Origin: Burkholderiaceae bacterium
Lineage (GTDB): Bacteria; Pseudomonadota; Gammaproteobacteria; Burkholderiales; Burkholderiaceae_B
DNA length: 64,000 bases
Assembly (NCBI GenBank): GCA_034680345.1
Contig: JAXISZ010000008.1
Span: 5,363 to 69,362 of the forward strand
Reading direction: 5' to 3'
Numbering within the stretch: position 1 is the stretch's first letter; the number at the start of each line of letters is the position of its first letter. This document shows, in pieces, positions 39,117 through 56,426 of the stretch. The position numbers and the translations under genes were made by a program. The notes below the pieces were generated by a model, which saw only the letters and a list, made by a program, of their open reading frames with translations, did not search any database and had not been told where the DNA came from.

Positions 39117-40958
39117 ATGTGTGGCATAGTTGGGGCTATTGTTAAAAATAATTGTGTGCCGTTTTTAATTGATGGATTAAAGCGTTTGGAGTACCGTGGC
39201 TATGATTCTGCTGGTTTGGCTGTTGCAGACCCAAAAGATCATCATATTCGCCGCGCCCGCAGTGTTGGGCGTGTTGCGCAGTTAGAATTGCAAGCCGCTT
39301 ATTTAGAAGCCAAGCTGGGGATTGCGCACACCCGTTGGGCAACCCATGGTGTGCCCAGTGAACGCAATGCGCACCCGCACACCAGTGATGCCAATGGTTT
39401 TACTGTGACTGTGGTGCATAACGGTATCATAGAAAATCATGATGAAATTCGTCGTCAGTTAATGGTGGCTGGTTACGTTTTTAGCTCCGATACTGACACA
39501 GAAGTCATTGCCCATTTAGTGCATCAAAACATGACTCGTGGGCAAACCTTATTGGCAGCTACACAAGCAGCGACTAAGCGGTTACAAGGTGCGTTTGCAA
39601 TTGCTTTAATTGCATCAAATGCACCAAACACCTTAGTGGCAGGTCGCAAGGGTGCCCCTTTATTAGCAGGTTTGGGTGAAGGCGAAGTTTATATTGCCTC
39701 TGACGCTTCAGCTTTGGTTTCTAAAACTCAGCGTATTGTTTATCTTGAAGAAGGCGATGTGTTGTGTGCCAATTTGGAAGGTATTGCCATTTACAATGCC
39801 CGTGGTGAAGTTGCCAACCGTTCGGTGGTCACTAGCGAATTGTCTGCTGATGCTGTAGAACTTGGTCCTTACCAGCATTACATGCAGAAAGAAATTTTTG
39901 AGCAATCTGGTGCAATTGCAGCCACTTTAGAAATGGTGAGCAATGCCAATGCCATTAGCCCCGAGCTTTTTGGGGCGGAGGCTGCACCGGTTCTTAACCA
40001 GGTTGGGCAAATTGTGATTTTGGCTTGTGGCACCAGTTACCATGCGGCGTTGGTGGCGCGTTATTGGTTGGAAAGTATTGCTGCTGTGCCCACAAGTGTT
40101 GAAATTGCCAGTGAATATCGGTACCGTGACAGCGTTTGTTTGCCCAATACTTTGGTCATTACTGTGTCGCAATCGGGTGAGACGGCCGATACATTGGCGG
40201 CGTTACATCATGCACACAACCACGGCGTGGAACACACGTTAAGTATTTGCAACGTGCCTGAGTCAGCCTTGATGCGAGCATCGCGGTTAAAATTTTTAAC
40301 CCGCGCAGGCCCTGAAATTGGGGTGGCTTCAACCAAGGCATTTACCACACAATTGGCGGCTTTATTTACCTTTACGTTAGTTATGGCTAAATTGCGAGGC
40401 CGTTTAGATTCTGTTCAAGAAGCGATGCTTTTGGCTCAGCTGCGGCATTTGCCTGCGGCGGTGGCCAAAGTGTTGGAAATTGAAGCGGATATTAAAGTGT
40501 GGGCGCAGCGCTTTGCGCAAAAACAGCACACGCTTTTTTTGGGTCGAGGTGTGCATTATCCTATTGCTATGGAAGGTGCTTTAAAGCTAAAAGAAATTTC
40601 TTATATCCATGCTGAGGCCTATGCAGCTGGCGAGCTTAAGCATGGTCCTTTGGCTTTGGTGGATGCACAAATGCCTGTGATTGCTGTTGCTCCCAACGAC
40701 CTTTTAATTGAAAAATTAAAATCCAATTTACAAGAGGTGAGCGCTCGTGGCGGTGAATTGTTTATTTTTGCTGACCGCGACACCCGCATGCAGTCCTGTG
40801 ATGGTGTGCATGTCCTGAATTTACTGGATCACGCTGGGTATTTATCGCCCATTTTACATGTGTTGCCTTTGCAGCTTTTGTCTTACCATGTGGCCTTGGT
40901 TAAGGCTACAGATGTGGATAAACCTCGCAATTTGGCTAAGAGTGTTACGGTGGAATAA
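39117..40958 (+). CDS. glmS: glutamine--fructose-6-phosphate aminotransferase
   Basis: It has the MCGIVGA N-terminal nucleophile, SIS domains and the C-terminus [13 protein letters not shown]. The last codons lie inside the island's left repeat. Confidence 0.95.
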
Positions 40959-40974
40959 TTTTCTTTTGACCTTT
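40947..40974 (+). repeat. left junction repeat (attL-like), includes the last glmS codons and stop
   Basis: ACGGTGGAATAATTTTCTTTTGACCTTT matches 54472-54499. The 11-bp core is perfect, and ~24-25 of ~29 aligned positions are identical. Confidence 0.65.
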
Positions 40975-41043
40975 TTCGGGGTCAAAGTTCAATCGTCCGC
41001 ATACCTTCGTGTTCGAGTTCGGGTTGAAACCAAAGCTCTGTCC

Positions 41044-41280
41044 TTGGGATACCTTGACCCTGCGCATCAAGCCCTGATCGACCGCATCCTGAGGCTTCAC
41101 CAAAACGGTATGAATTGCCGCCAGATTGGAGACCACCTGAATGAGTTGGGGGTGACCTCTTGGGGCGGGAAACGGTTCTATCCGGAACTGGTGTTTGGAG
41201 TGGTCAGGAAGGCTAGGATCAAGGCTGAACGGATATCTGATGCTTTGATGGAAGTACGGTGTGAAATTGTTTCAAATTGA
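41044..41280 (+). pseudogene. serine-recombinase 'recombinase domain' fragment lacking the catalytic N-terminus
   Basis: LDPAHQALIDRILRLHQNGMNCRQIGDHLNELGVTSWGGKRFYPELVFGVVRKA fits the recombinase-domain pattern (IAxxLNxxGVxTxxGxxW). No resolvase catalytic domain lies upstream, because glmS is there. Confidence 0.45.
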
Positions 41281-41349
41281 TTTTCTTGATGCGAAACTTT
41301 GCAAATCGATCAAGAAATTTGAAGCATTAGAGACCTGTTGGATCGCTGG

Positions 41350-41811
41350 TTAACTTGCTAAAAATCCACGCCTGACACGCCATAACAAGTAGCAAAATAG
41401 GAAGCTAGCAAGCGCACCAGACAAGCCCAGTGCCGCACTGATCACATCGCCTTCAACTCTGTATTCGTGTAAACCCAAGGCAGAGAACAAAAGAAGGAAA
41501 AAAGCCCCTCCGAGAAATGCTGTAACTAGATAGAGCTGGACAACGCTCAACATCAATCGCCGAGCCATCGACGGCACAGGGATGGATTTCTGTTTCAGAT
41601 ATATCGATACAACAGTGGGCAACAAAGCAAGAAAATACGCCGTCAATTTGATGTGGTCGGGGTAAGGAATGTTGCCCCATCGTTCGTATGCGTACATCGA
41701 CCAGCGAATGTCTTCAACAACCAACGAAACTATCATCAGAACAGAAGCCCCAATCAAAAAAGTGTGTAAGTTTAGGCGTTTCATATTTTGAGTCGTACAG
41801 GGCAATCTCAA
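41350..41811 (-). CDS. hypothetical 4-TM membrane protein
   Basis: The hydrophobic helices are clear. The likely start is the ATG at 41784 (MKRLNLHTF). I recognise no domain. Confidence 0.45.
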   Translation of the reverse strand: MRLPCTTQNMKRLNLHTFLIGASVLMIVSLVVEDIRWSMYAYERWGNIPYPDHIKLTAYFLALLPTVVSIYLKQKSIPVPSMARRLMLSVVQLYLVTAFLGGAFFLLLFSALGLHEYRVEGDVISAALGLSGALASFLFCYLLWRVRRGFLAS

Positions 41812-42205
41812 AGGACTTGAGGCTTCTGCTTCCGTTGGAAGCCTCGCTTATCTAAAAAATTGGCATTCCCTATCCAAGGACTACGGGAAGTAGCCCTAGC
41901 CCCGCCACGATTGGTACATCTTTAGACGAGGCTCTAACAATAGCTGAGATGTAGACATCTCTATGAGAATCTTCAAGGGTTCCACCGCCACTCTACAAAA
42001 CACCGTCAAATTCTGGTTAAAAAACCGCACCCAGGGCATACAACCTGTACCACATCTTTTGAGTAGTTAGCACGCCAAGACCGAGAACGAAATCAAAAAA
42101 ATCATCAAAGTCTCACGTCGAACCAAAACCTGAATTTTCACATCACCGGCAATAAATGTCAGCGTTCCACCTACACATTACCTTAAGATTGAGAAAAAAA
42201 GGACA

Positions 42206-43561
42206 TTGATGAGTACAAACGATTCGCTTGGTTTTTACAGCACTCTCGGTGTGACGCAGCAAGCATCCCAGTCAGAAATCAAGGCGGCGTACCGTAGCAA
42301 GGCAATGGAGTTTCATCCTGACAGGAACCCTGACAGAGATACGACCTCAGAGTTCCAAGCCCTACAGGCAGCGTACGACGTACTCTCTAACGAGAAACTG
42401 CGCCAGCAATATGATGCAGACAGTTCCATCCCCTCAAGTTCCACTAGTGATGACGAAGGCAGATATAGGCCGCTCGACCCAATTTATTGCTCAAAATGCA
42501 GCTCGGTCTCGGCGCAACCCCGATACAAGGTTTTTTACTCCGTCTACGGGTACATTTTCGGGGCTTATAAGAAGCCACATCAAGGTATTTTTTGTTCGAA
42601 ATGCGAAATCAAAGAAGGACTTAAGGCATCTGCTTTAACTATGGTTGCTGGCTGGTGGAGTATTGCAGGCTTTCTGTGGACCATACAGACGCTGATTCAG
42701 AACCTTGTAGGCGGTAGGTTTAGCGAACAAAATGCCCGACTGCAAGGCTACCAAGCTATGTATTTCGCCCAAATTGGCAAGCTTGATCTTGCCAGAGCTA
42801 TTGCGGTTGAAGCCTTGAAACTGGCTAAAAAGGCGACAAAAGAAAACGGGAAGAGTTTCTCCTTCAAGAAGAACCTTGGTTATGAAACTCCAGATCCACT
42901 CAAGGAATTACGAGACTCGCTAACAAAGTTTATTGACTCACTCGCAGAGGACACAAAGCTTGTTGAACTCAAGAACAAAAATGAGATTTTCAACAAACGA
43001 TTCGCCTATCAGCTCCTTCTTCTGGTCTCCTTTGCAGGGCTAATTTCTGGTGAGCTCTATCGACAAGAACTAGAGACCCGAGAGAAGGAACGCATACGCC
43101 TTGAACAACAGGGAATTGAAAGAGAAAGAGCCGCTGCAATCGCTGCGCAGCAGCAAGAGGAACTGAGGAAATCTGAGCTACCCCTTCCTAGAAGTGGACT
43201 GTTTCGAGGCTTTAGTCCCGTTAATGCACCGCCATTAAAAGTAACCAATTCGCCAGGAGCGAATACGCTAATGAAGCTCATCCGCACTTCTGACGGTGCA
43301 GAGGTAATGAGCATCTTCATTAGAGCGGGTCAAACTGTAGAGCTTGGCGTTCCCGTTGGCAGCTATAACGCAAAAATCGCCTCTGGACAGACTTGGTATG
43401 GGGACTCCATTAGATTCGGCCCCAACACAAGCTATACAACGCTCGATACCGTTCTTCACTTCTCGATTCAAGGTTCTCAGTTACTAGGGAATGAACTTAC
43501 CCTAACTCAGATCAAAAACGGGAATCTACGACAAGTCCCACTTAGCGCAAATGAATTTTGA
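42206..43561 (+). CDS. J-domain protein with CxxC zinc-ribbon-like segment, TM segment, coiled coil and unknown C-terminal domain
   Basis: It has a J domain with HPD (YSTLGV...IKAAYRSKAMEFHPDRNPD...AYDVLSN). This is followed by CSKCS...CSKCE, the hydrophobic stretch MVAGWWSIAGFLWTI, and an E/R/Q-rich coil. Confidence 0.8.
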   Translation: MMSTNDSLGFYSTLGVTQQASQSEIKAAYRSKAMEFHPDRNPDRDTTSEFQALQAAYDVLSNEKLRQQYDADSSIPSSSTSDDEGRYRPLDPIYCSKCSSVSAQPRYKVFYSVYGYIFGAYKKPHQGIFCSKCEIKEGLKASALTMVAGWWSIAGFLWTIQTLIQNLVGGRFSEQNARLQGYQAMYFAQIGKLDLARAIAVEALKLAKKATKENGKSFSFKKNLGYETPDPLKELRDSLTKFIDSLAEDTKLVELKNKNEIFNKRFAYQLLLLVSFAGLISGELYRQELETREKERIRLEQQGIERERAAAIAAQQQEELRKSELPLPRSGLFRGFSPVNAPPLKVTNSPGANTLMKLIRTSDGAEVMSIFIRAGQTVELGVPVGSYNAKIASGQTWYGDSIRFGPNTSYTTLDTVLHFSIQGSQLLGNELTLTQIKNGNLRQVPLSANEF

Positions 43562-43600
43562 AGCTAGCAATGACTAAAGAAAGAAACTGGTCTAATTGCA

Positions 43601-43954
43601 TCATTCGAACTTCCTAACTGCTTCTTCATATGCAGAATTTATTTGCTTTGTTTTTTCCTCAGCAATCATCGTAAATTCTGGTCCTAAAGAAGAGACCTTG
43701 TCTGGGTGATATTGAGAGATCTTTCTTTTGTAGGCAGCTTTTATTTCTTCAAATGAGGCGCCTGGAGTGACATCAAGAGTTTTGTACCAAGACTCGTGAT
43801 TAGACTCTTTAGGAACGTCATATGGATGCTTACCGTTAGACTCAGAAGCCTCGGCTTCCTCTTTGCTAGTCAGCAAAAGACGGACCAGACCATAACCAAA
43901 GAACAGAGCACACAAGACAATGAAGATTTCCTGATTACTTAGACCTTCAAACAT
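43601..43954 (-). CDS. membrane-anchored mini J-domain protein (DjlA-like topology)
   Basis: It has the N-terminal TM IFIVLCALFFGYGLVRLLL and a C-terminal J domain, WYKTLDVTPGASFEEIKAAYKRKISQYHPDK. Confidence 0.75.
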   Translation of the reverse strand: MFEGLSNQEIFIVLCALFFGYGLVRLLLTSKEEAEASESNGKHPYDVPKESNHESWYKTLDVTPGASFEEIKAAYKRKISQYHPDKVSSLGPEFTMIAEEKTKQINSAYEEAVRKFE

Positions 43955-44658
43955 TTCGCAAATCCTTGTAGCAAAGCAATCTTTGATGGATCAGACTCTT
44001 CGTCAAGTGCTGCATTTGTTTGGTTAGTTAACTCATACCGAATCAACTCTGCATCATCTTTCGCTACTCGCTTTAAAGCTCTAATGTGCAACCGTATCGC
44101 ACATATTTTAGAATCTTTAAGTAGCAATATTTTTTTATTGAGGTTTACCAAATAAGCGGGAACGAAAAGCGCCTCCACAAGCAGGGAGATCACCTTCCCC
44201 TTTGGTAACTCTTGCGCTCTTATGAGCAACAAAACAAAAAAAGCTGCAAGCATCCAGATGAAGGCGTGTCCAACCAGCAAGTTAACAACAACTGCCTCGA
44301 AGCCAAATACAAACGAGAGGTAGCAGTTCACTACGAGAAAAAAAAGATACAAATATCCTAAGAAAGCCAACGAGTTCAAGCCTCTAGCCAAAAATTCAAT
44401 TGAGCGCAACTCTCGCTTGTATAGATGTTTTTCCTCGTTCAACGTCACTCTTTCTACCGATATGACACGATCAAACAAATTGATGGGATTGAGAAATACA
44501 ACATCTCTTCCTGCAAATGAATTTCGTTGACGATGCTTGTAATACGGTCGTCCATGTCGACTTATACTGAGAAAATCTTTTCCTTTCGCTATGACAACTA
44601 GGTTGTCGAATACAAGAAATCCTAAAAGAATAACCCAAAAAAGTAACGTCTCGTTCAT
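43939..44658 (-). CDS. hypothetical polytopic membrane protein
   Basis: The 239-aa product has several TM helices and overlaps both neighbouring genes (operon). Confidence 0.5.
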   Translation of the reverse strand: MNETLLFWVILLGFLVFDNLVVIAKGKDFLSISRHGRPYYKHRQRNSFAGRDVVFLNPINLFDRVISVERVTLNEEKHLYKRELRSIEFLARGLNSLAFLGYLYLFFLVVNCYLSFVFGFEAVVVNLLVGHAFIWMLAAFFVLLLIRAQELPKGKVISLLVEALFVPAYLVNLNKKILLLKDSKICAIRLHIRALKRVAKDDAELIRYELTNQTNAALDEESDPSKIALLQGFAKCLKV

Positions 44659-45473
44659 TAGGTTTTATTTCTGGCGAACCACTTTTTGATACCCGCCCAA
44701 ACAGCAGCAGCAGCTCCAACTACTGCCAATAAGATAAGTTTCAAGCCCCCCTTTTTTGTTGCAACTGCCGCAGCTCCACCGAGAACCAATGCACCTAGCC
44801 CATAGGCTGCAACACGGTCACCATCTTTCCATTCGCTGTATTTTTCACCACTTACATAATCAAAATTCTTGAGCGCACTCTTAAAATCTACCAAATCTTT
44901 CTCGAGACTCTGAGGATCAGAGACTAAAATTGCAGAAATGTATCCACTACGCCCCAAAATTTTCGTTGTGACGTTGACCGTGGTACTCTGGTCATTTTCG
45001 GATCTTAGTTTTGTACCCCATTCAAGTCGTTTTGTTTCATTGTCGTAACGTGGTGGAAAATACCACCCCTCCAAAACCATCGTTTGGAGTCCTTGCTTCT
45101 TCCTCTCTTCGTTACCTCGTTGATTACTCTCTTTGAGGCTTGCCAACAGCGCATCAGCATCAATCTTTTCATCGTCCTTTATATATCCTTCATTGTTAAA
45201 GCGCAAAACGCCAAACCAAGAGCTATTTTTAGTAGCGATTGTGTATGAACTTGTTTGTGGAAGGTTCCCATTGAGCTGAAGAAACCTGTCTGTATCTCCT
45301 GCATCCAAGAACAACAAAGGTTCAGTAATCTTGAACTCACCTTTGTCTCCGATCTTTCCTACTGCTGGTGCCATCTGCCAGTTAAGATTTTTAAATTCGG
45401 GGATTTTATGCAGTTGTGCTTGCGCTAGTGTAAAAGCTACACTTAACGCAGCAGCAATAAATGTCTTTTTCAT
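44658..45473 (-). CDS. DUF2167 membrane-anchored protein
   Basis: It has a signal peptide and the WFGVLRFNNEGYIKDDEKIDADALLASLKESNQRGNEERKKQG and KILGRSGYISAILV motifs, as I recall for DUF2167. It also has a C-terminal Gly/Ala-rich TM anchor. Confidence 0.65.
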   Translation of the reverse strand: MKKTFIAAALSVAFTLAQAQLHKIPEFKNLNWQMAPAVGKIGDKGEFKITEPLLFLDAGDTDRFLQLNGNLPQTSSYTIATKNSSWFGVLRFNNEGYIKDDEKIDADALLASLKESNQRGNEERKKQGLQTMVLEGWYFPPRYDNETKRLEWGTKLRSENDQSTTVNVTTKILGRSGYISAILVSDPQSLEKDLVDFKSALKNFDYVSGEKYSEWKDGDRVAAYGLGALVLGGAAAVATKKGGLKLILLAVVGAAAAVWAGIKKWFARNKT

Positions 45474-45483
45474 TTTTTATTTC

Positions 45484-45708
45484 CTATAAATCAGTGTTGT
45501 TGTTTTGAATGAAAAACTTATAAATCGAGAACCCACATAAGAGCTCGCCCAAAGTAATAAGCCCCCAAAATGGACCGCTACCCAGCGTCCACACAAATGC
45601 AATTCCGAGTAAAATCAAAACACCCTTTTTAGGTGGATTCACGTACTTCCCAACGAAAAATCCTATCCCGGAAAATAGCAGGAAATAGATAAACATCAAA
45701 AAATCCAA
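45484..45708 (-). CDS. small 2-3 TM membrane protein
   Basis: The 74-aa product is hydrophobic and lies within the operon. Confidence 0.4.
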   Translation of the reverse strand: MDFLMFIYFLLFSGIGFFVGKYVNPPKKGVLILLGIAFVWTLGSGPFWGLITLGELLCGFSIYKFFIQNNNTDL

Positions 45709-45761
45709 TTTTGTGTCGATAACGTAAGATCTTGACCGTTTTAGATCTTAAAAATCTCAAA

Positions 45762-46214
45762 TCATTTGGATAGTTCAATTAGTTTTGGATAATCATCAAA
45801 TATTTGATTTGCTTGTTCAATAAGTCGAATTAGTATAGTTAATGTCTTGGCATCATATGGGCCAAATTTATACAGACAAACATAAAGCGTATCGCCTTCT
45901 AGTGCAACTTGATATGAAGTCTGTACGTTTATTTTATTTAATATCTCAAGAAATTCTATTCGATTTTGCCCGGATGGCATTTTTTCAAGATTGAACATCC
46001 TGAATATAGATGTTCTTTCATTATTTTTATCGAATAGAACTTTCCCTCGTCCTAATGTGGCAATTGAAATTCTATTGTTTTCTGTGGGCTTTACCTCGTA
46101 ACCCATCGCCTCAAGTTGTTTTGCAATTGGATCATCTTTTGCTAAAGATGCTGCAACTGCAATTGATGAATTCATAAGCAAAACGCTTGCCCATAGAATA
46201 AAATATTTCTTCAT
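45762..46214 (-). CDS. secreted protein, possibly YbjN-like fold
   Basis: It has the signal peptide MKKYFILWASVLLMNSSIAVAA. The remainder loosely resembles the YbjN/chaperone-like family, and that assignment is weak. Confidence 0.4.
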   Translation of the reverse strand: MKKYFILWASVLLMNSSIAVAASLAKDDPIAKQLEAMGYEVKPTENNRISIATLGRGKVLFDKNNERTSIFRMFNLEKMPSGQNRIEFLEILNKINVQTSYQVALEGDTLYVCLYKFGPYDAKTLTILIRLIEQANQIFDDYPKLIELSK

Positions 46215-46380
46215 AAACTTCCGTTAAATTTTGGTGTGTGTTCGCCATCTTACACATCTCAAAAAAAGAATCAACAACTACGAAGCCAGTCTAACCCTGG
46301 CCATAGACGCTGCTGTCGCTTGCGTGAACTTCAAGACGTAACCTTTTGCCAGTTCCATCAGGTGCACGCCATAGCGGACA

Positions 46381-46624
46381 TTAAAAAATCAGTTTCACGA
46401 TATCCGATTTGTTGACTGGCACGGACCCAACACAACCGTTACCGTCCTCTTGACACGGCACAGCTTGACTTTCTGTCACGGCTAGCAGCAGCATAGAGTA
46501 GCCAATACGCACCTGCTTCGTCGGCGAGGTACTTGGCACCGTCGGTGATAAGACACCGACGGTTTAGGCGATAGTAGTGCTCAGTCTCGGTGAAGTGACT
46601 GAGCATCGATGGATCGAATGCCAT
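46381..46624 (-). pseudogene. frameshifted/deleted DUF6876-like gene remnant
   Basis: The ORF FTETEHYYRLNRRCLITDGAKYLADEAGAYWLL stops prematurely. A second frame continues with CQEDGNGCVGSVPVNKSDIVKLIF up to the stop at 46381-46383. The family call is from memory. Confidence 0.35.
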
Positions 46625-46633
46625 TGACAGGCA

Positions 46634-46999
46634 TCAAGCTGTTGCTTTAGCGGGCTTGATCTTGCAAAGCTTGTCGATCAAGTCCATTACTGCCGAGTCG
46701 CCAGTTTCGATCAACAAGGCAATGCGGCGCATCGTCAGTCGTGCCTTTTGCTTGTTGGCGATGGACAGGTCACGAAGAACGTCAGATGGGATGGCTCCGC
46801 CCGAGGTCAGCTTGGTCTTGACCAACTCCGTGCTCATCCGGATGGTCTTGTCATAGACTGCTAGGGCACCATCAACCTCGGTCAAAGAGAGTGCTCTAAG
46901 TGGCTTCTCGTTGGACTTGCGACGGGTCTTAGGTTGGATGGTCTGGTCTACCGAGTTGTTGGTGGTGGTAATGGGCTCGGGGGCAAAGTTTTCGGTCAT
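46634..46999 (-). CDS. hypothetical protein (121 aa)
   Basis: An AGGAGA lies 7 nt upstream of the ATG at 46999 (MTENFAPEP...). The longer track ORF to 47107 probably over-extends. Confidence 0.45.
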   Translation of the reverse strand: MTENFAPEPITTTNNSVDQTIQPKTRRKSNEKPLRALSLTEVDGALAVYDKTIRMSTELVKTKLTSGGAIPSDVLRDLSIANKQKARLTMRRIALLIETGDSAVMDLIDKLCKIKPAKATA

Positions 47000-47231
47000 G
47001 GTCTTTTCTCCTGTAGTGTCATTCGCACCGTGCGTTTGACTAGATCTATAGTATTCATCGGAGAGAAAACGTACACCGCTTTGTGGGCACTGTATTACCA
47101 GTGACACATTTAATAAAAATCGGTGTACAAAAGAGAAAATTCGATTTATTGGCAGTAAAAAGTCTGCTGGGTAGATCCAAAGAAGAAATCAAAATACCTT
47201 AGGTGTCAGTACGTTTGTCCATTTCCAACAT

Positions 47232-48135: not shown

Positions 48136-48627
48136 TCAATGTAAAAACACGTTGTCCCAATCAACTGAAGATTGAAGTCCTTCGCCCTTCGATCTATTTT
48201 TTAATTTATAATCAAGCCAACCAAAATAATTATCTATAGGTTTGATTTCTATATCATGGTATCCGAATGTAGTTTTGCGCCAACATTTGATTATCATGTT
48301 TCTAAATTCATCTGGGTCCAAATGAATCGGTTTTTCTAGAGTCATGTGTATGTGAAAACGTATAAATGAATTGCCTTCAATTACTGGAACGACTGATAAT
48401 CTTTTTCCATATCTTGTAAAACCCTTGCCAAACACTGATTGATTAAGTCGGTTCATGAAGTGTCTTGTATTTTTAGAAACTTTTAATGGATCAAGATTTT
48501 CTCCAAATCTACCTTTGGAATGATTCCGCTCTAATCTTTGTTTTAAAGTGAGTGTTAGAGCAACGGGATTGGGAATAGGTTTGTTCTGAAAAAAATCGAG
48601 ATAATCAAATTTTGTTGGTAAATTCAT
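48136..48627 (-). CDS. candidate HUH-type rolling-circle Rep endonuclease domain protein
   Basis: Three motifs occur in the canonical order: ALTLTL (res 23-28), FHIHMTL (HUH, res 91-97) and DYKLK (YxxK, res 139-143). There is no helicase domain. Confidence 0.4.
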   Translation of the reverse strand: MNLPTKFDYLDFFQNKPIPNPVALTLTLKQRLERNHSKGRFGENLDPLKVSKNTRHFMNRLNQSVFGKGFTRYGKRLSVVPVIEGNSFIRFHIHMTLEKPIHLDPDEFRNMIIKCWRKTTFGYHDIEIKPIDNYFGWLDYKLKNRSKGEGLQSSVDWDNVFLH

Positions 48628-48924
48628 TAAGTCCTTTAATACTGTGTAATATTAATATCATTATTTATATGAAAATTACCCCATATTTACTAATCTATGA
48701 AAATATTTTTATAAAACAGAATTTGTAATTTGCCGCCTTGAGGGTTTGATTAATAATTGCTACTTGAATGATGTTCTCGCTATTTACACCAGAGTGTTGA
48801 CATCTTCTTAAGAGAAGATTGAAAAATTTTGAGAATGGCTATCCTATGTCGTGATAACCGAGATGTCGGCGCACACTTCGCCACAGACTTTCTTGAATAT
48901 GTTCAAGCGCTGGTGGTGATATCG

Positions 48925-48942
48925 TTTTTTTTGGGGGGGGGG
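48925..48942 (+). repeat. T8G10 homopolymer junction
   Basis: TTTTTTTTGGGGGGGGGG directly abuts the truncated recombinase pseudogene. Confidence 0.9.
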
Positions 48943-48943
48943 C

Positions 48944-49120
48944 TACTCATTGCACTGTGGTGAGCGCATGTTCATCACGAATGCAGCTCGAAAGATCAGC
49001 ACGGTTGGCTTCTCTTTACGTGGCGAGTAGATGCTGGCGGGTCACTAGTCCCTAGCTGTCACCCAGCGGTATATCGACGACGACAGTGAGGCGAGAATGA
49101 AGATCGTCGACCTGATCTAG
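48944..49120 (+). pseudogene. 5'-truncated tyrosine recombinase paralog with two in-frame TAG stops
   Basis: It translates as YSLHCGERMFITNAARKISTVGFSLRGE*MLAGH*SLAVTQRYIDDDSEARMKIVDLI*. This is colinear with the C-terminus of the intact gene at 52172-52774 (SSHSGRRTFITNAAKKISTVGGSLRDVQWLAGHSSLQTTQRYIDGDSDARRKVVDLV*). Confidence 0.8.
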
Positions 49121-49140: not shown

Positions 49141-51837
49141 TTACCGGTATTCAATCAGCAGGAATTCAGCGCCACCTGCAATAAGATCGTTGATCTTGAG
49201 TTTTGGGAACAGGTTGCGCTTAAGCACTCCTAGTTTGATTCGCACCTCCTGCGTGTTGGGCACTCGATGCGGCGTGAAGACCGTTTTCTTGGCAGCATTG
49301 TCTACATCGGTCTTGGTGCAGGGAATCCCTGCTTCATCGTTTAGGATGTCCGCCAGATCCTTCGCTTTGAGCTTGTAGGTCGGGAAGATGTTTTTTCTGC
49401 CAAAGGCATGTGGTTTTAGCTCATGCGTGCCTGCCTTACGCAGCTTCAATGCGATCAACAGCTCCTGACGCAACCTCTTCAAATCGCCTTGGTCTTTCCG
49501 CAGGTATTTCGAGGCATCGCCCTCAGTGCTCAGGCTGCTTTCGTGGAATGTTGCAAAGGCTTCGAGGTCCTCGACCGTTTTCAGGCAATGCCGTTCCGAC
49601 AGGTTGTATTGCTCCCATAACTGACGGGTCTTTTGAAACTGCTTGATGGTCTCCCAGGGACATGTTTGAAATTGCAGATGCTGGTAGCCTTCACCCTTAG
49701 TCATGACGGGATTGGTCGGTCGTCGCTTCCAGTCGTACTCCATGGAAAGGACTTTTTCCATTTCACGGTCGACGAAATCAGCACCAAGTTCATACATGTC
49801 CCGGATGCCGAGACCCAAGGTCATCATCATCGTATCTGTGGGCTGGCGGTTGAAAAAGAGGTTGATGATTTGGCTATTTTCGGCTGGCTTTGAGGCTGGA
49901 TCAGGCAGTTTGATGCCGCCCTTTGCGAGGACATATCGCTCGTCTTCCTTAGGCGCCATGCCCGTGTCTTGCCAGTCTGATGCCTCACTTGGAACAAGGG
50001 TAGCCTGAGCACGTGTTCGCCAGCCCAATGGCTTTCGTATGATGTGTTTGATTTCGTAAACGTCTTCTTTGCCAGATGAGACGCCAGTCAGAAGACGCCT
50101 AGAGGATCGGTAAAACCGACAAAGCGTGCCTTTGGATGCTTGCGCCATTTGCTCGGCAGTCGCAGTGGTCAAGAAACCATCGGTCGTCACGTTGAAGATG
50201 GCAACATTCTTGGGCAGGGCGTTCATAATTTCGCCCAGCACGCCCCGACAAAATGCAGTGATGAAGGCGGCATACACTGGGTTCGTGATCGGGCTTTCAG
50301 CGAGTGGCTTGGTGTCTTGGTCTCGCAGATCATAGATGCGTCGCTCTCGCAACCCTTGAGCAGTCTTGCCATAAGTCGAGTTGACTAGCTCTTTCCAGAA
50401 CAGGTTATTTAAAGTCTTTTTCGGGAACTGCTTACGCTGCTCGATGCAATAACGGGTGAAGCCGTCAAACGGGCGCACTGGGCGCTCAATTCCCTGCTTA
50501 ACTTTCCCATGTCGCCCAGACGGGATGAAACGTCCCTCAATTAATGTGATCTTTGCCCCCAGGCTGTGCGCCAACAAGATCTCGCTGATGTGAGTCGTGC
50601 TGTTGCCCTTTCGGGGAAAAATCAGACCGTTCTCGGTTCTGACTGGCAACACCGGATAGGCAACATCATCAGGGAACTCAAAATCGACATTGGCAAACGC
50701 CAGCTCGGCGGACCGAAAGTTCAACAATTCATCTGTGTCACGAATGGGGCGGCATTCGTCCCAATCAGGTCTGCCGATCAAAGCCATCGCCGATGGATAG
50801 GCGCTGGAAAGGTCATAGTCATACCAGACGCTTTCAAACGCAGGTCCAAACCAGAATTGCTCGTTGCGTCCGCCGTGATAACACTCGGTGAAGAAGTCGA
50901 GCGACCAATGGATTTTCTTGAGGTAAACGATCTTTTTCTTGGTCTGATATCTCCCGAAGCGTTTGCTCCAGTATTTCTCTTTGATTTCCTCTTTGCCGAC
51001 GATCTCAAGTGGGTTAACGCCTTGGTCCTTCCAGAACTGTCGGATCAGATCGACGCCGATGGAGGTCAATGTCACAGGCATGCGGAACTTGCCAGTCCGG
51101 TCTTGGTAAAGACGGATCATCCTACGGGTGTATTGGGTGCAGATTTCGGCGTCTCGGATGGCGTACTCATGAAATGCATCCCAATCTTGCTGCATGAACG
51201 CCTTCATGTTCTGCTTGATCTTCAGCTCTTCCTGTGGGGTCGAACCAAGTTCGATCTTTTCAAAGTCAAGGATGTCACCAATACCTGCAAGGCTCTTTGC
51301 GCCAGCAGGGGCAAGGGTCATGGTGTCCCGGATTTTCACACTAATCGGGATGCTATCGCCGGAAGAAGTCTTACCAAGGTTCAGCCTAATGTCATTGGCG
51401 ACGTTCATGAAGAGGTTGCGAATGTTGTCCAGCTTTAGGGTTGATCTTGTCGCTTCGTCTTTGAAGTCAGCAAATCCCGGCACATCAGCCCTTGTGAAGT
51501 GGGCGACAAGATAGATCGTGCTGGGCAAAATTAGGTTAGGGAAGCGGGCGCAACCATCAGCCAACGCAGATGTCAGGAAATCTTCCAGAGTTATACGGTC
51601 CTCAACATTAGGACCTCTTGGCTTGAGCAGTCCTGACCAGATTGGTGCAGAGCTATCATCACCATGACGTTCTATCACGGTGCAGCAGTATTGATAGCTG
51701 AGAACCTCGTTGTTTAAGGTCCGGCTGGCGTCGTCAGTGTATCGCTGGTATTCGGTATCAAAGCCAATGATCAGGTAACGGCTGGGGTCAGCACGCACTG
51801 TGTGGATCGAATCGAATTGTGACTTTAATAAGGGCAT
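49141..51837 (-). CDS. family-B DNA polymerase, primer-independent PolB (piPolB)-like
   Basis: Motifs: ExoI FDTEY (D27/E29), ExoII HFTRAD, ExoIII YAIRD. Also YHGGRNE, motif A DLSSAYPS (342-349), motif B KELVNSTYG (482-490), motif C TTDG (551-554), and KH-x8-RTR (597-609). Confidence 0.85.
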   Translation of the reverse strand: MPLLKSQFDSIHTVRADPSRYLIIGFDTEYQRYTDDASRTLNNEVLSYQYCCTVIERHGDDSSAPIWSGLLKPRGPNVEDRITLEDFLTSALADGCARFPNLILPSTIYLVAHFTRADVPGFADFKDEATRSTLKLDNIRNLFMNVANDIRLNLGKTSSGDSIPISVKIRDTMTLAPAGAKSLAGIGDILDFEKIELGSTPQEELKIKQNMKAFMQQDWDAFHEYAIRDAEICTQYTRRMIRLYQDRTGKFRMPVTLTSIGVDLIRQFWKDQGVNPLEIVGKEEIKEKYWSKRFGRYQTKKKIVYLKKIHWSLDFFTECYHGGRNEQFWFGPAFESVWYDYDLSSAYPSAMALIGRPDWDECRPIRDTDELLNFRSAELAFANVDFEFPDDVAYPVLPVRTENGLIFPRKGNSTTHISEILLAHSLGAKITLIEGRFIPSGRHGKVKQGIERPVRPFDGFTRYCIEQRKQFPKKTLNNLFWKELVNSTYGKTAQGLRERRIYDLRDQDTKPLAESPITNPVYAAFITAFCRGVLGEIMNALPKNVAIFNVTTDGFLTTATAEQMAQASKGTLCRFYRSSRRLLTGVSSGKEDVYEIKHIIRKPLGWRTRAQATLVPSEASDWQDTGMAPKEDERYVLAKGGIKLPDPASKPAENSQIINLFFNRQPTDTMMMTLGLGIRDMYELGADFVDREMEKVLSMEYDWKRRPTNPVMTKGEGYQHLQFQTCPWETIKQFQKTRQLWEQYNLSERHCLKTVEDLEAFATFHESSLSTEGDASKYLRKDQGDLKRLRQELLIALKLRKAGTHELKPHAFGRKNIFPTYKLKAKDLADILNDEAGIPCTKTDVDNAAKKTVFTPHRVPNTQEVRIKLGVLKRNLFPKLKINDLIAGGAEFLLIEYR

Positions 51838-51844
51838 GACAGAA

Positions 51845-51888
51845 GTAGTAAAAGTTTATCCTAATTACCCATACCAAACTTTTACTAC
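51845..51888. repeat. perfect 13-bp inverted repeat (18-nt spacer) just upstream of the polymerase start codon
   Basis: GTAGTAAAAGTTT at 51845-51857 pairs with AAACTTTTACTAC at 51876-51888. Confidence 0.9.
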
Positions 51889-54443: not shown

Positions 54444-54471
54444 ATAAAGGTCAAAAGGACTTTAGTCCGCC

Positions 54472-54499
54472 ACGGTGGAATAGTTTCGCTTTTACCTTT
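54472..54499 (+). repeat. right junction repeat (attR-like), a displaced glmS 3'-end look-alike
   Basis: ACGGTGGAATAGTTTCGCTTTTACCTTT reads ...T V E TAG in the glmS-equivalent frame. Confidence 0.65.
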
Positions 54500-54572
54500 G
54501 CGTGCTTCGAGGTTGATGTTAGCACCCATGTTACTGTGATATAGGTACGCAACAATAGGCAAGTCAGAAGAG

Positions 54573-54609
54573 CTTTGAGGGTGCTTATTGGGTCCCTCAG
54601 AGGGTTTTT
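54573..54609 (+). terminator. rho-independent terminator-like hairpin, possibly the displaced native glmS terminator
   Basis: CTTTGAGGG (54573-81) pairs with CCCTCAGAG (54594-602), with one G-U pair. The loop is 12 nt, followed by GGTTTTT. Confidence 0.45.
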
Positions 54610-54650
54610 CACCAAAATTCTTTTATCAATTGCACAAGTCGATCGGGGTT

Positions 54651-54659
54651 GGGGGGGGG
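54651..54659 (+). repeat. G9 homopolymer in the intergenic region right of the island
   Basis: I counted it directly. It is preceded by GGGGTT. Confidence 0.9.
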
Positions 54660-54944
54660 CATAGTGAATACAACTTGTCAGTGATCAGGTCCGAGCCTTA
54701 AATGTATGAGCATTGATTAAAAATTAACATGCTAAGTCGCTACAGGAGCAAAATAGTTATTTTTTGGCATGAAGAACAGATCTAGAAAATAAATATGAAC
54801 AACGCTGTGAATCGTACTTGTGAATCATAGCTTGTAAGAACAGATGGTTTTAAATCAATTACAATAGAAAATTACTCTGTCCACACCGTTGCCCTGTACT
54901 TTTTTGTCAAAGTTAGTGCAAGTCAGAAAACTGAAAGCTTCCGC

Positions 54945-56396: not shown

Positions 56397-56426
56397 TCCA
56401 TATTTATTAAAAAATGAATATTTATA

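What the first reader, a model, noticed from the sequence alone, without database searches (positions are those of the whole stretch)
49141..51837. Family-B polymerase with the primer-independent PolB motif set (TTD motif C, KH-x8-RTR instead of KxY)
The 898-aa protein has a complete 3'-5' exonuclease set: FDTEY, HFTRAD and YAIRD. It also has polymerase motifs YHGGRNE, DLSSAYPS and KELVNSTYG. Motif C is TTDG rather than YxDTDS. Where protein-primed PolBs have KxY, this protein has IKHIIRKPLGWRTRA. That string matches my recollection of the piPolB-specific KH...KTRG region, with R replacing K and A replacing G, at the same spacing. No terminal-protein gene, cas1 or terminal inverted repeats are seen. 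A ~290-aa C-terminal extension (residues ~610-898) has no motif I recognise.
Basis: partly seen in the sequence, partly recalled or inferred. Interest (0 to 1): 0.75.

Follow-up and report, generated by a model that had tools for sequence, protein, structure and literature searches.

The report
Primer-independent polymerase in a glmS island
The gene encodes a genuine member of the already described primer-independent family-B DNA polymerases (piPolB); what is less ordinary is that it sits in a 13.5-kb mobile island inserted at the end of glmS in a betaproteobacterium, although its nearest relatives are from marine alphaproteobacteria.

Summary
In detail: 49141..51837 (-) is an intact 898-aa ORF, and every quoted motif is at the stated residue. 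The protein is 58% identical, end to end, to the Rhodobacterales Y4I polymerase. It is 28% identical (E=6e-92) to the E. coli piPolB type, whose residue numbering matches the mutagenised enzyme: K613/H614/K623/R625 align with K597/H598/R607/R609. A profile of non-alphaproteobacterial piPolBs scores it at E=4e-122, against 2e-10 for protein-primed PolBs. A tree places it inside the piPolB clade with 100% bootstrap. RTRA and NVTTDG are minority variants within its clade. The "C-terminal extension" is not private: it is shared by the family, including E. coli. It folds confidently but matches no solved or viral structure. So this is a new member of a known kind. Beyond the finding, the host is a Burkholderiales-type betaproteobacterium. 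The element (about 40.95-54.47 kb) is delimited by a duplicated glmS terminus and a reconstructable 54-bp dyad-symmetric attP next to a large serine recombinase. Sister islands without piPolB occupy the same site in Rhodoferax. A conserved HUH-Rep-like gene follows the polymerase. No empty site was found, and no biochemistry exists for this protein.

The parts
49141..51837 (-). piPolB gene (898 aa): N-terminal 3'-5' exonuclease, palm/fingers/TPR-like polymerase core, C-terminal domain
   Evidence: AF2 model pLDDT 89.4, pTM 0.85; best PDB fold match phi29 DNAP, E=4e-15, TM 0.61-0.63
50176..50193 (-). PolC motif NVTTDG (residues 549-554). First Asp replaced by Thr; D553 is the predicted metal ligand
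   Evidence: In the model it is the turn between strands 547-550 and 554-557
50008..50049 (-). KH-X8-RTRA (residues 597-610), counterpart of E. coli K613 H614 ... K623 T R625 G
   Evidence: It lies in the beta-hairpin 594-605/611-616 of the model
49144..50007 (-). C-terminal domain (residues 611-898). Conserved across piPolBs, confidently folded, no known structural relative
51845..51888 (-). Perfect 13-bp stem hairpin ending 7 nt before the piPolB start codon (function unknown)
   Evidence: z=-2.5; 2 of 200 shuffles fold as well
48848..49117 (+). Tyrosine-recombinase pseudogene fragment (C-terminal 90 codons, 3 in-frame stops), convergent with piPolB
   Evidence: 56% identity to the intact YR, E=4e-26; contiguous DNA homology with the intact YR of L004
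48136..48627 (-). 163-aa HUH-Rep-like protein (motifs PNPVALTLT, FHIH, GWLDYKLK)
   Evidence: Homologs lie directly downstream of piPolB in L097 and L099 and about 4 kb downstream in L005
47232..47973 (-). Three small ORFs (81, 61 and 103 aa) that accompany piPolB and the Rep-like gene in related elements
   Evidence: 81-aa ORF 50-61% identical in L005, L097, L099
52172..52774 (+). Intact 200-aa tyrosine recombinase (catalytic domain only), always paired with the LSR
   Evidence: Phage_integrase E=1e-17; 79-86% identical to the YRs of L100, L101, L103
52731..54443 (+). Large serine recombinase (570 aa: Resolvase + Recombinase + Zn ribbon)
40947..40974 (+). attL: last four codons of glmS (ACG GTG GAA TAA) plus the element-side P' arm
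54446..54499 (+). attR: element-side P arm (54446-54471), central AC (54472-54473), and the displaced glmS terminus ACGGTGGAATAG with native downstream DNA
39117..40958 (+). glmS, the target gene. Its 3' end is regenerated by the element
40975..47107 (.). Left part of the island. Contains a conserved left end (to about 41280), a low-GC cargo block (two DnaJ-domain proteins, DUF2167, unknowns), and backbone genes 46439-47107 shared with sister islands

Best explanation
The ORF encodes a primer-independent family-B DNA polymerase (piPolB) of the Rhodobacterales subgroup. It is the replicase module of a 13.5-kb integrative island. [quoted passage not shown] K597 of the KH-X8-RTRA strand would support dinucleotide formation, and R607/R609 would hold the primer terminus. 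The island is a mosaic. Its pipolin core (piPolB, an HUH-Rep-like gene, small ORFs, a decayed tyrosine recombinase) is of the type found in Planktomarina and other Roseobacter-group bacteria. The core sits inside a backbone (left end, two backbone genes, a 200-aa tyrosine recombinase, a large serine recombinase) typical of islands that insert at the 3' end of glmS in Burkholderiales. Most likely the serine recombinase integrates and excises the element. It would cross over at an AC dinucleotide in the Thr codon of the glmS terminus and regenerate the T-V-E-stop ending. The excised circle would then be copied by piPolB, possibly after nicking by the Rep-like protein. Shown here: family membership, residue correspondence, the fold, the att architecture and its recurrence, and the mosaic origin. 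Inferred: all enzymatic activities, which recombinase acts, and any cooperation between Rep and piPolB.
For: Membership: 58% identity over 895 aligned positions to the Rhodobacterales bacterium Y4I polymerase. A protein from that organism seeded the 2017 piPolB search, and cluster membership is. 28% identity, E=6e-92, to the E. coli piPolB type, with exact correspondence of D59/E61, D368, K613/H614 and K623/R625. A piPolB profile without any alphaproteobacterial sequence gives E=4e-122 over residues 20-754, against E=2e-10 over 298-502 for a pPolB profile. The NJ tree gives 100% bootstrap for the piPolB/pPolB split and for the nested clades. tblastn E=1e-36 to 1e-39 to plasmids pSE-12228-03 and Fusobacterium and E=5e-11 to pLME300, against 3e-5 to Bam35/GIL16. 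AF2 model pLDDT 89.4; best PDB match is phi29 DNAP. Element: the only matches of at least 20/28 to the glmS-end 28-mer in 64 kb lie within 56 nt after the LSR stop, one direct and one inverted. The reconstructed attP is 54 bp with 42/54 self-complementary positions and a central AC. The same architecture occurs in Rhodoferax L101 (glmS, then an 11,481-bp island, then YR+LSR; attP 40/54). L100 and L103 also have a P arm followed by a displaced glmS terminus after the LSR. Host: synteny with Burkholderiales MAG L011 stops at 40954. The right-flank gene has only betaproteobacterial named relatives. The right junction and the LSR-YR-piPolB-Rep linkage appear in two independent assemblies.
Against: There is no biochemical evidence for this protein. 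K623 of E. coli is Arg here and G626 is Ala, and the effect on priming is unknown. No unoccupied glmS site of the same species was found, so the insertion is inferred from repeats and from sister islands. The left junction (glmS to cargo) is seen only in the window's own contig. The attB left arm shows no dyad symmetry (10/54). An 11-nt identical core would also suit a tyrosine recombinase. The Rep-like assignment rests on Pfam hits below the curated cut-off plus motif conservation, with no hit to solved structures by sequence. TPR1/TPR2 were not mapped residue by residue.
Confidence: 0.88

Rival explanations
1. It is a protein-primed PolB (phi29/Bam35/PRD1 type) or a casposon/polinton-type PolB that replicates a linear element from terminal inverted repeats.
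For: Pfam assigns it only to the generic DNA_pol_B_2 family. The best solved fold match is phi29 DNAP.
Against: Motif C is TTD, not DTD, and KxY is replaced. The pPolB profile scores 26 bits against 395 bits for the piPolB profile, and the tree separates the groups with 100% support. No terminal-protein or cas1 gene was found among the neighbours, and no terminal inverted repeats. The element is an integrated island bounded by recombinase att sites.
Confidence: 0.02
2. The polymerase is cargo rather than the element's replicase. It might serve the host or the island in DNA-damage tolerance (translesion synthesis) or in defence, while the island is maintained only by integration.
For: The 2017 paper reports translesion synthesis and better survival of E. 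coli expressing piPolB after DNA damage. Sister glmS islands exist without any piPolB, so the backbone does not need it. The 2024 survey stresses pipolins as defence islands.
Against: The polymerase travels with the same Rep-like gene and small ORFs in hosts of different class, which looks like a replication module. No defence system was detected in this island. Catalytic and family-specific residues are invariant across 80 relatives, which fits either role.
Confidence: 0.2
3. The apparent betaproteobacterial location is an assembly or binning artefact, and the polymerase really belongs to a Planktomarina-like alphaproteobacterium.
For: The closest named polymerases (84-86%) are from Planktomarina temperata MAGs. 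The polymerase gene has 51% GC against 41-44% for the flanks. The left junction is seen only in this contig.
Against: Two independent assemblies link piPolB to the YR and LSR, and one continues into the right-flank host genes. That YR and LSR are 79-86% and 63-83% identical to those of Burkholderiales glmS islands. The attL and attR halves match each other across the 13.5 kb. Both flanks are betaproteobacterial. The gene keeps about 49-51% GC in hosts whose flanks are 41-44%, 54-56% and 62-64% GC, as expected of a roaming element.
Confidence: 0.04
4. The 200-aa tyrosine recombinase, not the serine recombinase, carries out integration at glmS.
For: The YR is strictly paired with the LSR in all four islands. 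attL and attR share an 11-nt identical core, as is typical of tyrosine recombinase sites. Remnants of YR gene 3' ends flank piPolB genes in several relatives, which suggests YR-mediated rearrangements.
Against: The reconstructed attP is a 54-bp dyad centred on a non-palindromic dinucleotide, the usual serine-integrase layout, in two divergent islands. The LSR gene abuts attR. The 2024 survey concludes that in alphaproteobacterial pipolins with both enzymes the site follows the LSR. The YR lacks an N-terminal DNA-binding domain (200 aa).
Confidence: 0.15

Closest known systems
piPolB of the E. coli 3-373-03_S1_C2 pipolin (Redrejo-Rodriguez et al. 2017, PMC5695915). Compared here through the E. 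coli RM14721 copy, which has the same residue numbering (L093:2275-4875)
   Same: Same domain order and length class (866 vs 898 aa). Alignable over query residues 2-853 (28% identity, E=6e-92). Same ExoI/II/III and motifs A and B. xVTTDGFLT motif C. KH, then 8 residues, then xTRx. Shared C-terminal domain.
   Different: K623 is Arg and G626 is Ala here, and Ser of SxTTDG is Asn. The E. coli gene sits in a tRNA-Leu-integrated pipolin with IntSXT/IntP2 tyrosine recombinases, DUF2787 and WYL, not in a glmS island with a serine recombinase. Activity is shown only for E. coli.
Rhodobacterales piPolBs: Rhodobacterales bacterium Y4I (EDZ46481.1, P0157; the 2017 paper used a Y4I protein, WP_008555115, as seed), Leisingera, Ruegeria, Planktomarina temperata
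   Same: 58-61% (Y4I, Leisingera, Ruegeria) to 84-88% (Planktomarina-type and metagenomic) identity over the full length. Same RTRG/RTRA and S/NVTTDG states. In the closest relatives examined (L005, L097, L099), the same accompanying Rep-like and small ORFs.
   Different: The host here is a betaproteobacterium. The published alphaproteobacterial pipolins are described as LSR elements in or next to yifB, or as tRNA elements with IntTn916, whereas this one is at glmS with a Burkholderiales-type LSR.
phi29 DNA polymerase (protein-primed PolB; PDB 2PYJ, 1XHX)
   Same: Closest solved fold (Foldseek E=4e-15, TM 0.61-0.63 normalised to phi29). Exonuclease and palm residues align.
   Different: phi29 has YxDTDS and KxY, needs a terminal protein, replicates a linear genome, and lacks the roughly 290-aa C-terminal domain. 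Sequence similarity is marginal: the query found phi29 neither in the PDB sequence search nor among the listed phage tblastn hits.
Serine-integrase islands that insert at the 3' end of a conserved gene and regenerate it (SCCmec at rlmH/orfX with CcrAB, from general knowledge). Tn7 at attTn7 downstream of glmS, as a user of the same locus
   Same: Targets the terminus of an essential, conserved gene, restores its coding end, and places the recombinase gene at the edge of the island. Uses the glmS locus as a safe harbour, like Tn7.
   Different: Tn7 uses the TnsABCD transposase and inserts downstream of glmS without site-specific recombination. I compared the recombinase here with neither Ccr nor any characterised integrase.

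Membership tests
piPolB (primer-independent PolB) | Family-B exonuclease motifs ExoI (DxE), ExoII, ExoIII and polymerase motifs A and B present and in register | tested here: met
   D27/E29, D118, Y225/D229, D342, K482/N486/G490 align with the E. coli piPolB type, phi29 and Bam35 and are invariant or nearly so in 80 relatives.
piPolB (primer-independent PolB) | PolC motif SxTTDG: the first catalytic Asp of YxDTDS replaced by Thr (PMC5695915) | tested here: met
   NVTTDG 549-554 aligns with E. coli SVTTDG. In the clade, SVTTDG occurs in 74 and NVTTDG in 6 of 80. The Ser position is not conserved here, but the TTDG core is invariant.
piPolB (primer-independent PolB) | Extended KH-X8-KTRG motif in place of KxY (PMC5695915) | tested here: met
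   K597 H598, 8 residues, R607 T608 R609 A610 align with K613 H614 ... K623 T624 R625 G626. Spacing of 8 holds in 80/80, with RTRG in 63 and RTRA in 17. Published plasmid piPolBs also vary at the first and last positions (KTRG, RTRV, KTRV).
piPolB (primer-independent PolB) | TPR1 and TPR2 subdomains as in protein-primed PolBs | tested here: inconclusive
   The whole-chain fold match to phi29 (TM 0.61-0.63 normalised to phi29) and the beta-hairpin 500-511 between motifs B and C are consistent. No residue-level structural superposition was available.
piPolB (primer-independent PolB) | Scores with a piPolB profile far better than other PolBs (ExplorePipolin uses E<=1e-50) and falls inside the piPolB clade | tested here: met
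   A home-made profile of 5 non-alphaproteobacterial piPolBs gives E=4e-122, against E=2e-10 for a pPolB profile. NJ tree, 200 bootstraps, 100% for the relevant splits. The official ExplorePipolin HMM and casposon/polinton/rPolB references were not available.
piPolB (primer-independent PolB) | [quoted passage not shown] | not testable with these tools
   Requires purified protein. Shown only for the E. coli enzyme.
Pipolin (piPolB-encoding integrative element) | piPolB inside a mobile element with a recombinase and delimiting att-like repeats. No terminal protein and no virion genes | tested here: met
   YR + LSR; attL/attR; no PHROG structural hits.
Pipolin (piPolB-encoding integrative element) | Integration into a tRNA/tmRNA gene, or for alphaproteobacterial LSR pipolins in or next to yifB (PMC11551731) | tested here: not met
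   No tRNA in the window. The neighbour of the LSR is a HAD-UbiA gene and the target is glmS. glmS is not among the sites named in the paper's main text. This is a difference of site, not of kind.
Pipolin (piPolB-encoding integrative element) | Cargo of defence systems (described as frequent, not obligatory) | tested here: not met
   No PADLOC hit for 10 island ORFs.
Protein-primed PolB elements / casposons | YxDTDS and KxY motifs, an adjacent terminal-protein gene (or cas1), and terminal inverted repeats | tested here: not met
Large-serine-recombinase integrative element | LSR with Resolvase + Recombinase + Zn-ribbon domains at the island edge, and an attP of about 50 bp with dyad symmetry around a non-palindromic central dinucleotide shared with attB | tested here: met
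   Domains. attP is 54 bp with 42/54 self-complementary positions and core AC. The same holds in Rhodoferax L101 (40/54). The P arm plus displaced glmS terminus recurs in L100 and L103. Recombination itself was not tested, and no empty site was found.
HUH rolling-circle Rep endonucleases (for the 163-aa neighbour) | Motif I (xxTLT), motif II (HUH), motif III (YxxK), and a significant match to a Rep family | tested here: inconclusive
   All three motifs are invariant in 4 homologs of 36-38% identity. All four hit PF23343 REP_ORF2-G2P with best E=6e-6; the window protein's 19.5 bits is below the 27.8-bit cut-off. No hit to PDB sequences.

The most novel reading that the evidence does not exclude
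A Burkholderiales island family that targets the glmS terminus with a YR+LSR pair has captured the replication core of a Rhodobacterales-type pipolin: piPolB plus a small HUH Rep and the decayed donor recombinase. If so, this is a pipolin in a bacterial class and at an attachment site that the searchable main text of the 2024 survey does not mention. The conserved Rep-piPolB pairing would mean that this pipolin lineage replicates its excised circle by Rep-nicked rolling-circle synthesis, with piPolB priming the complementary strand itself. The family-wide C-terminal domain of about 290 aa, which matches no known fold, would be the part that adapts a phi29-like polymerase to primer-independent initiation.
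Probability: 0.3. Interest if true: 0.55.

Novelty: new member of a known kind. Interest (0 to 1): 0.35.

Why it matters
The polymerase itself adds little. piPolBs have been known since 2017, Rhodobacterales proteins were among the founding sequences, and thousands of pipolins have been catalogued. Three side results have some value.

First, a polymerase 84-88% identical to Planktomarina-type and marine-metagenome proteins sits in a betaproteobacterial chromosome, inside a backbone native to Burkholderiales. This is a clear case of recent transfer of a pipolin core between bacterial classes, and of module exchange between island families.

Second, the island family that recombines at the glmS terminus is a compact, sequence-defined serine-integrase/att system at a universally conserved safe-harbour locus. 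That may interest people who collect integrases for genome engineering.

Third, the conserved HUH-Rep-like neighbour and the structurally unmatched C-terminal domain give two concrete, testable leads on how pipolins start replication and how a phi29-like enzyme came to prime without a primer.

Tried and rejected
- NCBIfam scan of the polymerase: no family.
- Sequence search of the polymerase against PDB chains: only chance hits.
- tRNA scan of the window: none, so a tRNA-type pipolin site was rejected.
- The yifB site expected from the 2024 paper: rejected, because the LSR neighbour is a HAD-UbiA gene.
- Empty-site searches all failed. Exact look-ups of HAD-UbiA and glmS gave only the same contig or nothing. 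The genome-contig scan with HAD-UbiA found no relative. The exact attR/flank 32-mer gave 0 hits in metagenome contigs. The HAD-UbiA protein scan of metagenomes gave only 38-39% relatives. L011 and L012, the closest glmS loci, share no DNA with the window downstream of glmS.
- PHROGs and PADLOC on ten island ORFs: only DnaJ-domain hits of unknown function, and no defence system.
- Fold searches with the C-terminal domain alone: nothing significant in PDB or BFVD.
- Profile of the Rep-like protein against PDB sequences: nothing.
- A literature search for piPolB structures with mixed terms returned only irrelevant papers. No supplementary files of the 2024 survey are held, so I could not check whether Burkholderiales or glmS appear in its datasets.
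- The MAFFT alignment of phi29 around KxY was not trustworthy: it aligned K597 with phi29 K507 rather than the KxY strand. I did not use it for the KxY correspondence and relied on the E. coli alignment instead.
- The ORF L005:12876-13358, first taken for a Rep-like homolog, is unrelated (17% identity).
Full report
**1. The observation**

The window has an uninterrupted ORF at 49141..51837 on the minus strand, starting with ATG and encoding 898 aa.
- FDTEY 26-30
- HFTRAD 113-118
- YAIRD 225-229
- YHGGRNE 320-326
- DLSSAYPS 342-349
- KELVNSTYG 482-490
- NVTTDG 549-554
- KH 597-598, then eight residues, then RTRA 607-610

Pfam recognises only the generic DNA_pol_B_2 family, above its gathering score (E=1e-10, residues 314-508). 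NCBIfam has no model for it. No PDB chain is similar by sequence.

**2. Is it a piPolB?**

The defining features come from Redrejo-Rodriguez et al. 2017 (PMC5695915):
- exonuclease and polymerase active sites conserved
- TPR1 and TPR2 present
- PolC changed from YxDTDS to SxTTDG
- KxY replaced by KTRG, preceded by KH, giving KH-X8-KTRG

That paper used a protein of Rhodobacterales bacterium Y4I (WP_008555115) as a search seed. I tested membership in five ways.

(a) The 90%-identity cluster of hit P0074 contains the Y4I polymerase (EDZ46481.1, P0157). The window protein is 58% identical to it across an 895-column alignment (query residues 23-894), E=0.

(b) I located the E. coli pipolin polymerase gene with the published PCR primers. 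The primer site occurs in 294 of 5,426 complete genomes. I fetched one copy, 866 aa, flanked by a tyrosine recombinase, an HTH protein and DUF2787 as published. BLASTP gives 28% identity over query residues 2-853, E=6e-92. The numbering of that copy reproduces the published mutants exactly:
- D59/E61 align with D27/E29
- D368 aligns with D342
- K613/H614 align with K597/H598
- K623/R625 align with R607/R609
- SVTTDGFLT aligns with NVTTDGFLT

(c) tblastn against plasmids finds the published plasmid pipolins pSE-12228-03 (E=2e-36) and pLME300 (E=5e-11). Fusobacterium plasmid genes score around 1e-39, with 66-80% coverage. The best phage protein-primed PolBs (Bam35, GIL16) reach only 3e-5 over 23% of the query.

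(d) A profile built from five piPolBs, none alphaproteobacterial, scores the protein at E=4e-122 (395 bits, residues 20-754). A profile of phi29, Bam35, AP50 and a PRD1-type polymerase gives E=2e-10 (26 bits, residues 298-502). A neighbour-joining tree on 577 columns with 200 bootstraps gives 100% support for four splits: piPolB versus pPolB, E. coli plus Rhodobacterales, the Rhodobacterales group, and window plus Planktomarina.

(e) An AlphaFold2 model from 80 homologs is confident (mean pLDDT 89.4, pTM 0.85, no residue below 50). Its best solved match is phi29 DNA polymerase (E=4e-15, TM 0.61-0.63 normalised to phi29). RNA/DNA-primed PolBs score far lower (TM at most 0.36). In the model, D342 ends a strand that is followed by a helix (motif A). 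K482-K491 lie in a long helix (motif B). T551-D553 form the turn of a beta-hairpin (motif C). KH...RTR lie on the hairpin 594-605/611-616. These are the canonical places for these motifs.

I could not obtain a residue-level superposition, so the TPR1/TPR2 criterion is consistent rather than proven.

**3.

R in place of K, and A in place of G, are ordinary variation. In 80 clade members:
- KH and the spacing of eight are universal
- the last motif reads RTRG in 63 and RTRA in 17
- PolC reads SVTTDG in 74 and NVTTDG in 6

Published plasmid piPolBs read KTRG (Staphylococcus), RTRV (pLME300) and KTRV (Fusobacterium). The invariant core is therefore K-H...x-T-R-x.

**4. The C-terminal 290 residues**

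This is not a private extension:
- The region aligns with the E. coli enzyme up to residue 836 of 866.
- It contains about 30 invariant positions in the clade.
- Searched alone against 1.84 billion cluster representatives, it finds 417 proteins (218 at E<=1e-10). In the full-length hits (about 810-1130 aa) the match always occupies the C-terminal position. Shorter hits look like contig-truncated fragments, though I did not prove that.
- Modelled alone it folds confidently (pLDDT 87, pTM 0.75) as a mixed alpha/beta part followed by a helical part.
- It matches nothing in the PDB (best E=0.57, TM below 0.2) or in the viral structure library (best E=0.35).

Neither the 2017 paper nor the 2024 survey mentions a C-terminal domain in its main text, and the 2017 paper does not mention a thumb. 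Part of the region must supply the thumb function; the rest has no assigned role. This is an open point for the whole family, not a peculiarity of this gene.

**5. The host**

I expected a Roseobacter-group host, because the closest named polymerases (84-86%) are from Planktomarina temperata MAGs, and the next (58-61%) from Leisingera, Ruegeria and Y4I. Instead:
- The glmS gene 8 kb to the left is most similar to Burkholderiales MAGs (83% and 80%). All 80 returned loci but a few mislabelled MAGs are Betaproteobacteria.
- The best of them, L011, is syntenic with the window from 31.9 kb to 40,954, the last codons of glmS, and not beyond.
- A right-flank gene (61338-63620) has only betaproteobacterial named relatives: Burkholderiaceae, Rhodoferax, Limnohabitans, Ramlibacter.
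- The polymerase gene keeps 49-51% GC in this host (flanks 41-44%), in a Planktomarina MAG (flanks 54-56%) and in a 3.2-Mb contig (flanks 62-64%). In those two relatives it sits at different chromosomal sites.

The gene therefore belongs to an element that moves between hosts, here across classes.

**6. The element and its borders**

A repeat scan found two things:
- The last four codons of glmS plus 16 nt (40947-40974, ACGGTGGAATAATTTTCTTTTGACCTTT) recur 29 nt after the stop of the large serine recombinase (54472-54499, 23/28 identical).
- An inverted copy lies immediately before that (54446-54471).

In the whole window, on both strands, these are the only matches of at least 20/28.

Joining the element-side halves gives a 54-bp attP. 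It has 42/54 self-complementary positions, perfect 12-bp outer arms and a non-palindromic central AC, which is the normal layout of a serine-integrase site. The reconstructed attB shares the right arm (21/26) but has no dyad symmetry (10/54). The crossover would lie in the Thr codon of the glmS ending T-V-E-stop. The element brings its own V-E-TAA, and the original V-E-TAG is left behind at attR.

No unoccupied site could be found in the collections. Independent support came from relatives of the recombinase:
- In a Rhodoferax genome (L101), glmS is followed by an 11,481-bp island that ends with a 200-aa tyrosine recombinase and an LSR 63% identical to the window's, then host genes. Its halves rebuild an attP with 40/54 self-complementary positions and the same central AC. 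Its direct repeat is confined to the glmS terminus.
- In L100 and L103 (LSR 80% and 83% identical), a similar P arm followed by ACGGTGGAGTGA and unrelated DNA lies just after the LSR stop.

So four elements leave a displaced glmS terminus, with different stop codons, next to this recombinase family. The main text of the 2024 survey names yifB, ychF, ftsK/spoIIIE and T2SSE as non-tRNA pipolin sites. It contains neither 'glmS' nor 'Betaproteobacteria'. Its supplementary tables were not available to me.

**7. A mosaic**

The genes fall into two sets.

Backbone, shared with the piPolB-less Burkholderiales islands:
- the left end up to about 41280
- ORFs 46439-47107 (56-78% identical)
- the 200-aa tyrosine recombinase (79-86%)
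- the LSR (63-83%)

Core, shared with the Planktomarina-type elements (L005, L097, L098, L099):
- piPolB (85-88%)
- a 163-aa ORF (34-37%)
- small ORFs (81 aa at 50-61%; 103 aa, N-terminal part)

Between the core and the polymerase stop lies a fragment of a second tyrosine recombinase gene (48848-49117). It has three in-frame stops and is 56% identical to the intact copy. It continues the DNA homology with L004 into that element's intact, convergent recombinase gene, so it is the decayed recombinase of the donor pipolin.

The block 41.3-46.4 kb has low GC and carries two DnaJ-domain proteins, a DUF2167 protein and unknowns. It has no counterpart in either set and no defence or phage-family annotation.

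Two independent short-read assemblies support the linkage. One links LSR, YR, piPolB and the 163-aa gene. The other links piPolB, YR and LSR and continues into the right-flank host genes. The left junction is seen only in the window's own contig.

**8. The Rep-like neighbour**

The 163-aa protein gives a weak Pfam hit to REP_ORF2-G2P (E=1e-3, below the cut-off). Three homologs of 36-38% identity lie directly after piPolB in L097 and L099, and nearby in L005. All three hit the same family independently (best E=6e-6). All four keep three motifs invariant: PNPVxLTLT, R-x-H-x-H and GW-x-x-Y-x-L-K. This is the motif I / HUH / YxxK pattern of rolling-circle initiators. A profile found no solved relative by sequence, so I treat the assignment as probable, not established.

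The 2017 paper states that piPolB is the only replication protein conserved in pipolins and lists helicases, nucleases and an Orc1/Cdc6-like ATPase among occasional extras. The words 'HUH', 'rolling' and 'replication initiat' do not occur in the 2024 main text.

By eye, the piPolB-less sister islands also encode proteins of about 165-176 aa with AITVVFK, HIH or HVH, and YxxK strings. These are not detectably homologous to the window protein.

**9. How it most likely works**

Shown: the protein has every sequence and fold feature of piPolBs. It also sits in an integrated island bounded by serine-integrase-type att sites at glmS.

Inferred from the E. coli enzyme: proofreading, strand displacement, translesion synthesis, and template-dependent de novo primer synthesis. 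K597 would be critical for dinucleotide formation, and R607/R609 for holding the primer end.

Inferred from the anatomy:
- The LSR, perhaps with the small tyrosine recombinase as partner or resolvase, excises a 13.5-kb circle.
- The Rep-like protein may nick it.
- piPolB copies it and primes the complementary strand itself.

A perfect 13-bp hairpin ending 7 nt before the polymerase start codon (51845-51888; z=-2.5) may be regulatory or an origin. I did not follow it up.

**10. Verdict**

The protein is a new member of a known family. That family's founding set already included Rhodobacterales sequences, so the finding itself is of modest interest.

The surroundings are somewhat more interesting:
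- a betaproteobacterial host
- a glmS-terminus attachment site shared with a family of piPolB-less islands
- evidence that a pipolin core was captured by such an island
- a conserved HUH-Rep-like partner gene
- a family-wide C-terminal domain with no structural relative

None of these was verified experimentally, and no empty site was found.

Noticed in passing
window 40947-40974 and 54446-54499; L101 219-246 and 11674-11711; L100 ~7620-7670; L103 ~8300-8345: A family of islands in Burkholderiales ends with a 200-aa tyrosine recombinase plus a large serine recombinase and inserts at the last codons of glmS. Each leaves a displaced T-V-E-stop remnant and has a reconstructable 54-bp dyad-symmetric attP with central AC. 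Three of the four examples carry no piPolB.
   Followed up: yes
window 1-40958 and 54500-64000 versus 49141-51837: The host flanks are betaproteobacterial (synteny with Burkholderiales MAG L011; right-flank gene relatives in Rhodoferax, Limnohabitans, Ramlibacter). The closest named polymerase relatives (84-86%) are from the alphaproteobacterium Planktomarina. The polymerase gene keeps about 50% GC in hosts whose flanks range from 41% to 64% GC.
   Followed up: yes
window 48136-48627 (-): A 163-aa protein with invariant motif I / HUH / YxxK strings and sub-threshold hits to Pfam REP_ORF2-G2P. It is conserved next to piPolB in related elements (L097, L099, L005). It is a possible rolling-circle initiator, and no such partner of piPolB is mentioned in the pipolin papers I could search.
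   Followed up: partly
window 48848-49117 (+); L005 9817-9912; L099 9768-9917 and 8012-8173: Fragments of tyrosine-recombinase gene 3' ends flank piPolB genes in direct orientation with the intact copy, in the window and in two relatives. Which copy is intact differs between elements. This suggests tandem accretion, or recombination at a site overlapping the recombinase gene end.
   Followed up: partly
window 51845-51888 (-): A perfect 13-bp stem hairpin (GTAGTAAAAGTTT...AAACTTTTACTAC) ends 7 nt upstream of the piPolB start codon. It is preceded by AT-rich short tandem repeats (TTATTTTTAC x2). z=-2.5 against shuffles.
   Followed up: no
window 41350-46214: A low-GC (0.33-0.43) cargo block with two DnaJ-domain proteins (42206-43561 +, 43601-43954 -), a DUF2167 protein (44658-45473 -) and several ORFs without any family. 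It is absent from both the sister islands and the Planktomarina-type elements, and has no defence-system hit.
   Followed up: no
window 40975-41280 (+); L101 250-540; L103 5-112: The first ~300 nt of the island after glmS are conserved at the protein level in one + strand frame (48% over 137 aa with L101, 67% over 36 aa with L103). This could be a small inward-reading gene or a conserved regulatory/att-proximal region reading on from glmS.
   Followed up: no
L103 3649-4143, L100 2775-3281, L101 1812-2342: The piPolB-less sister islands encode ~165-176-aa proteins with, by eye, AITVVFK / HIH or HVH / YxxK strings, which are HUH-like. They show no detectable homology to the window's Rep-like protein. 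L101 also has a 793-aa protein without any Pfam family.
   Followed up: partly
one search hit list (e.g. P0172 283 aa, P0173 309 aa, P0183 307 aa): Many representatives of 260-320 aa consist almost entirely of the piPolB C-terminal domain. They are probably contig-truncated genes, but free-standing or split versions of the domain were not excluded.
   Followed up: no
L093 (E. coli RM14721): The published E. coli piPolB forward-primer site occurs in 294 of 5,426 complete E. coli genomes, always chromosomal. In most RefSeq records listed, the gene under it is annotated only as 'hypothetical protein'.
   Followed up: no
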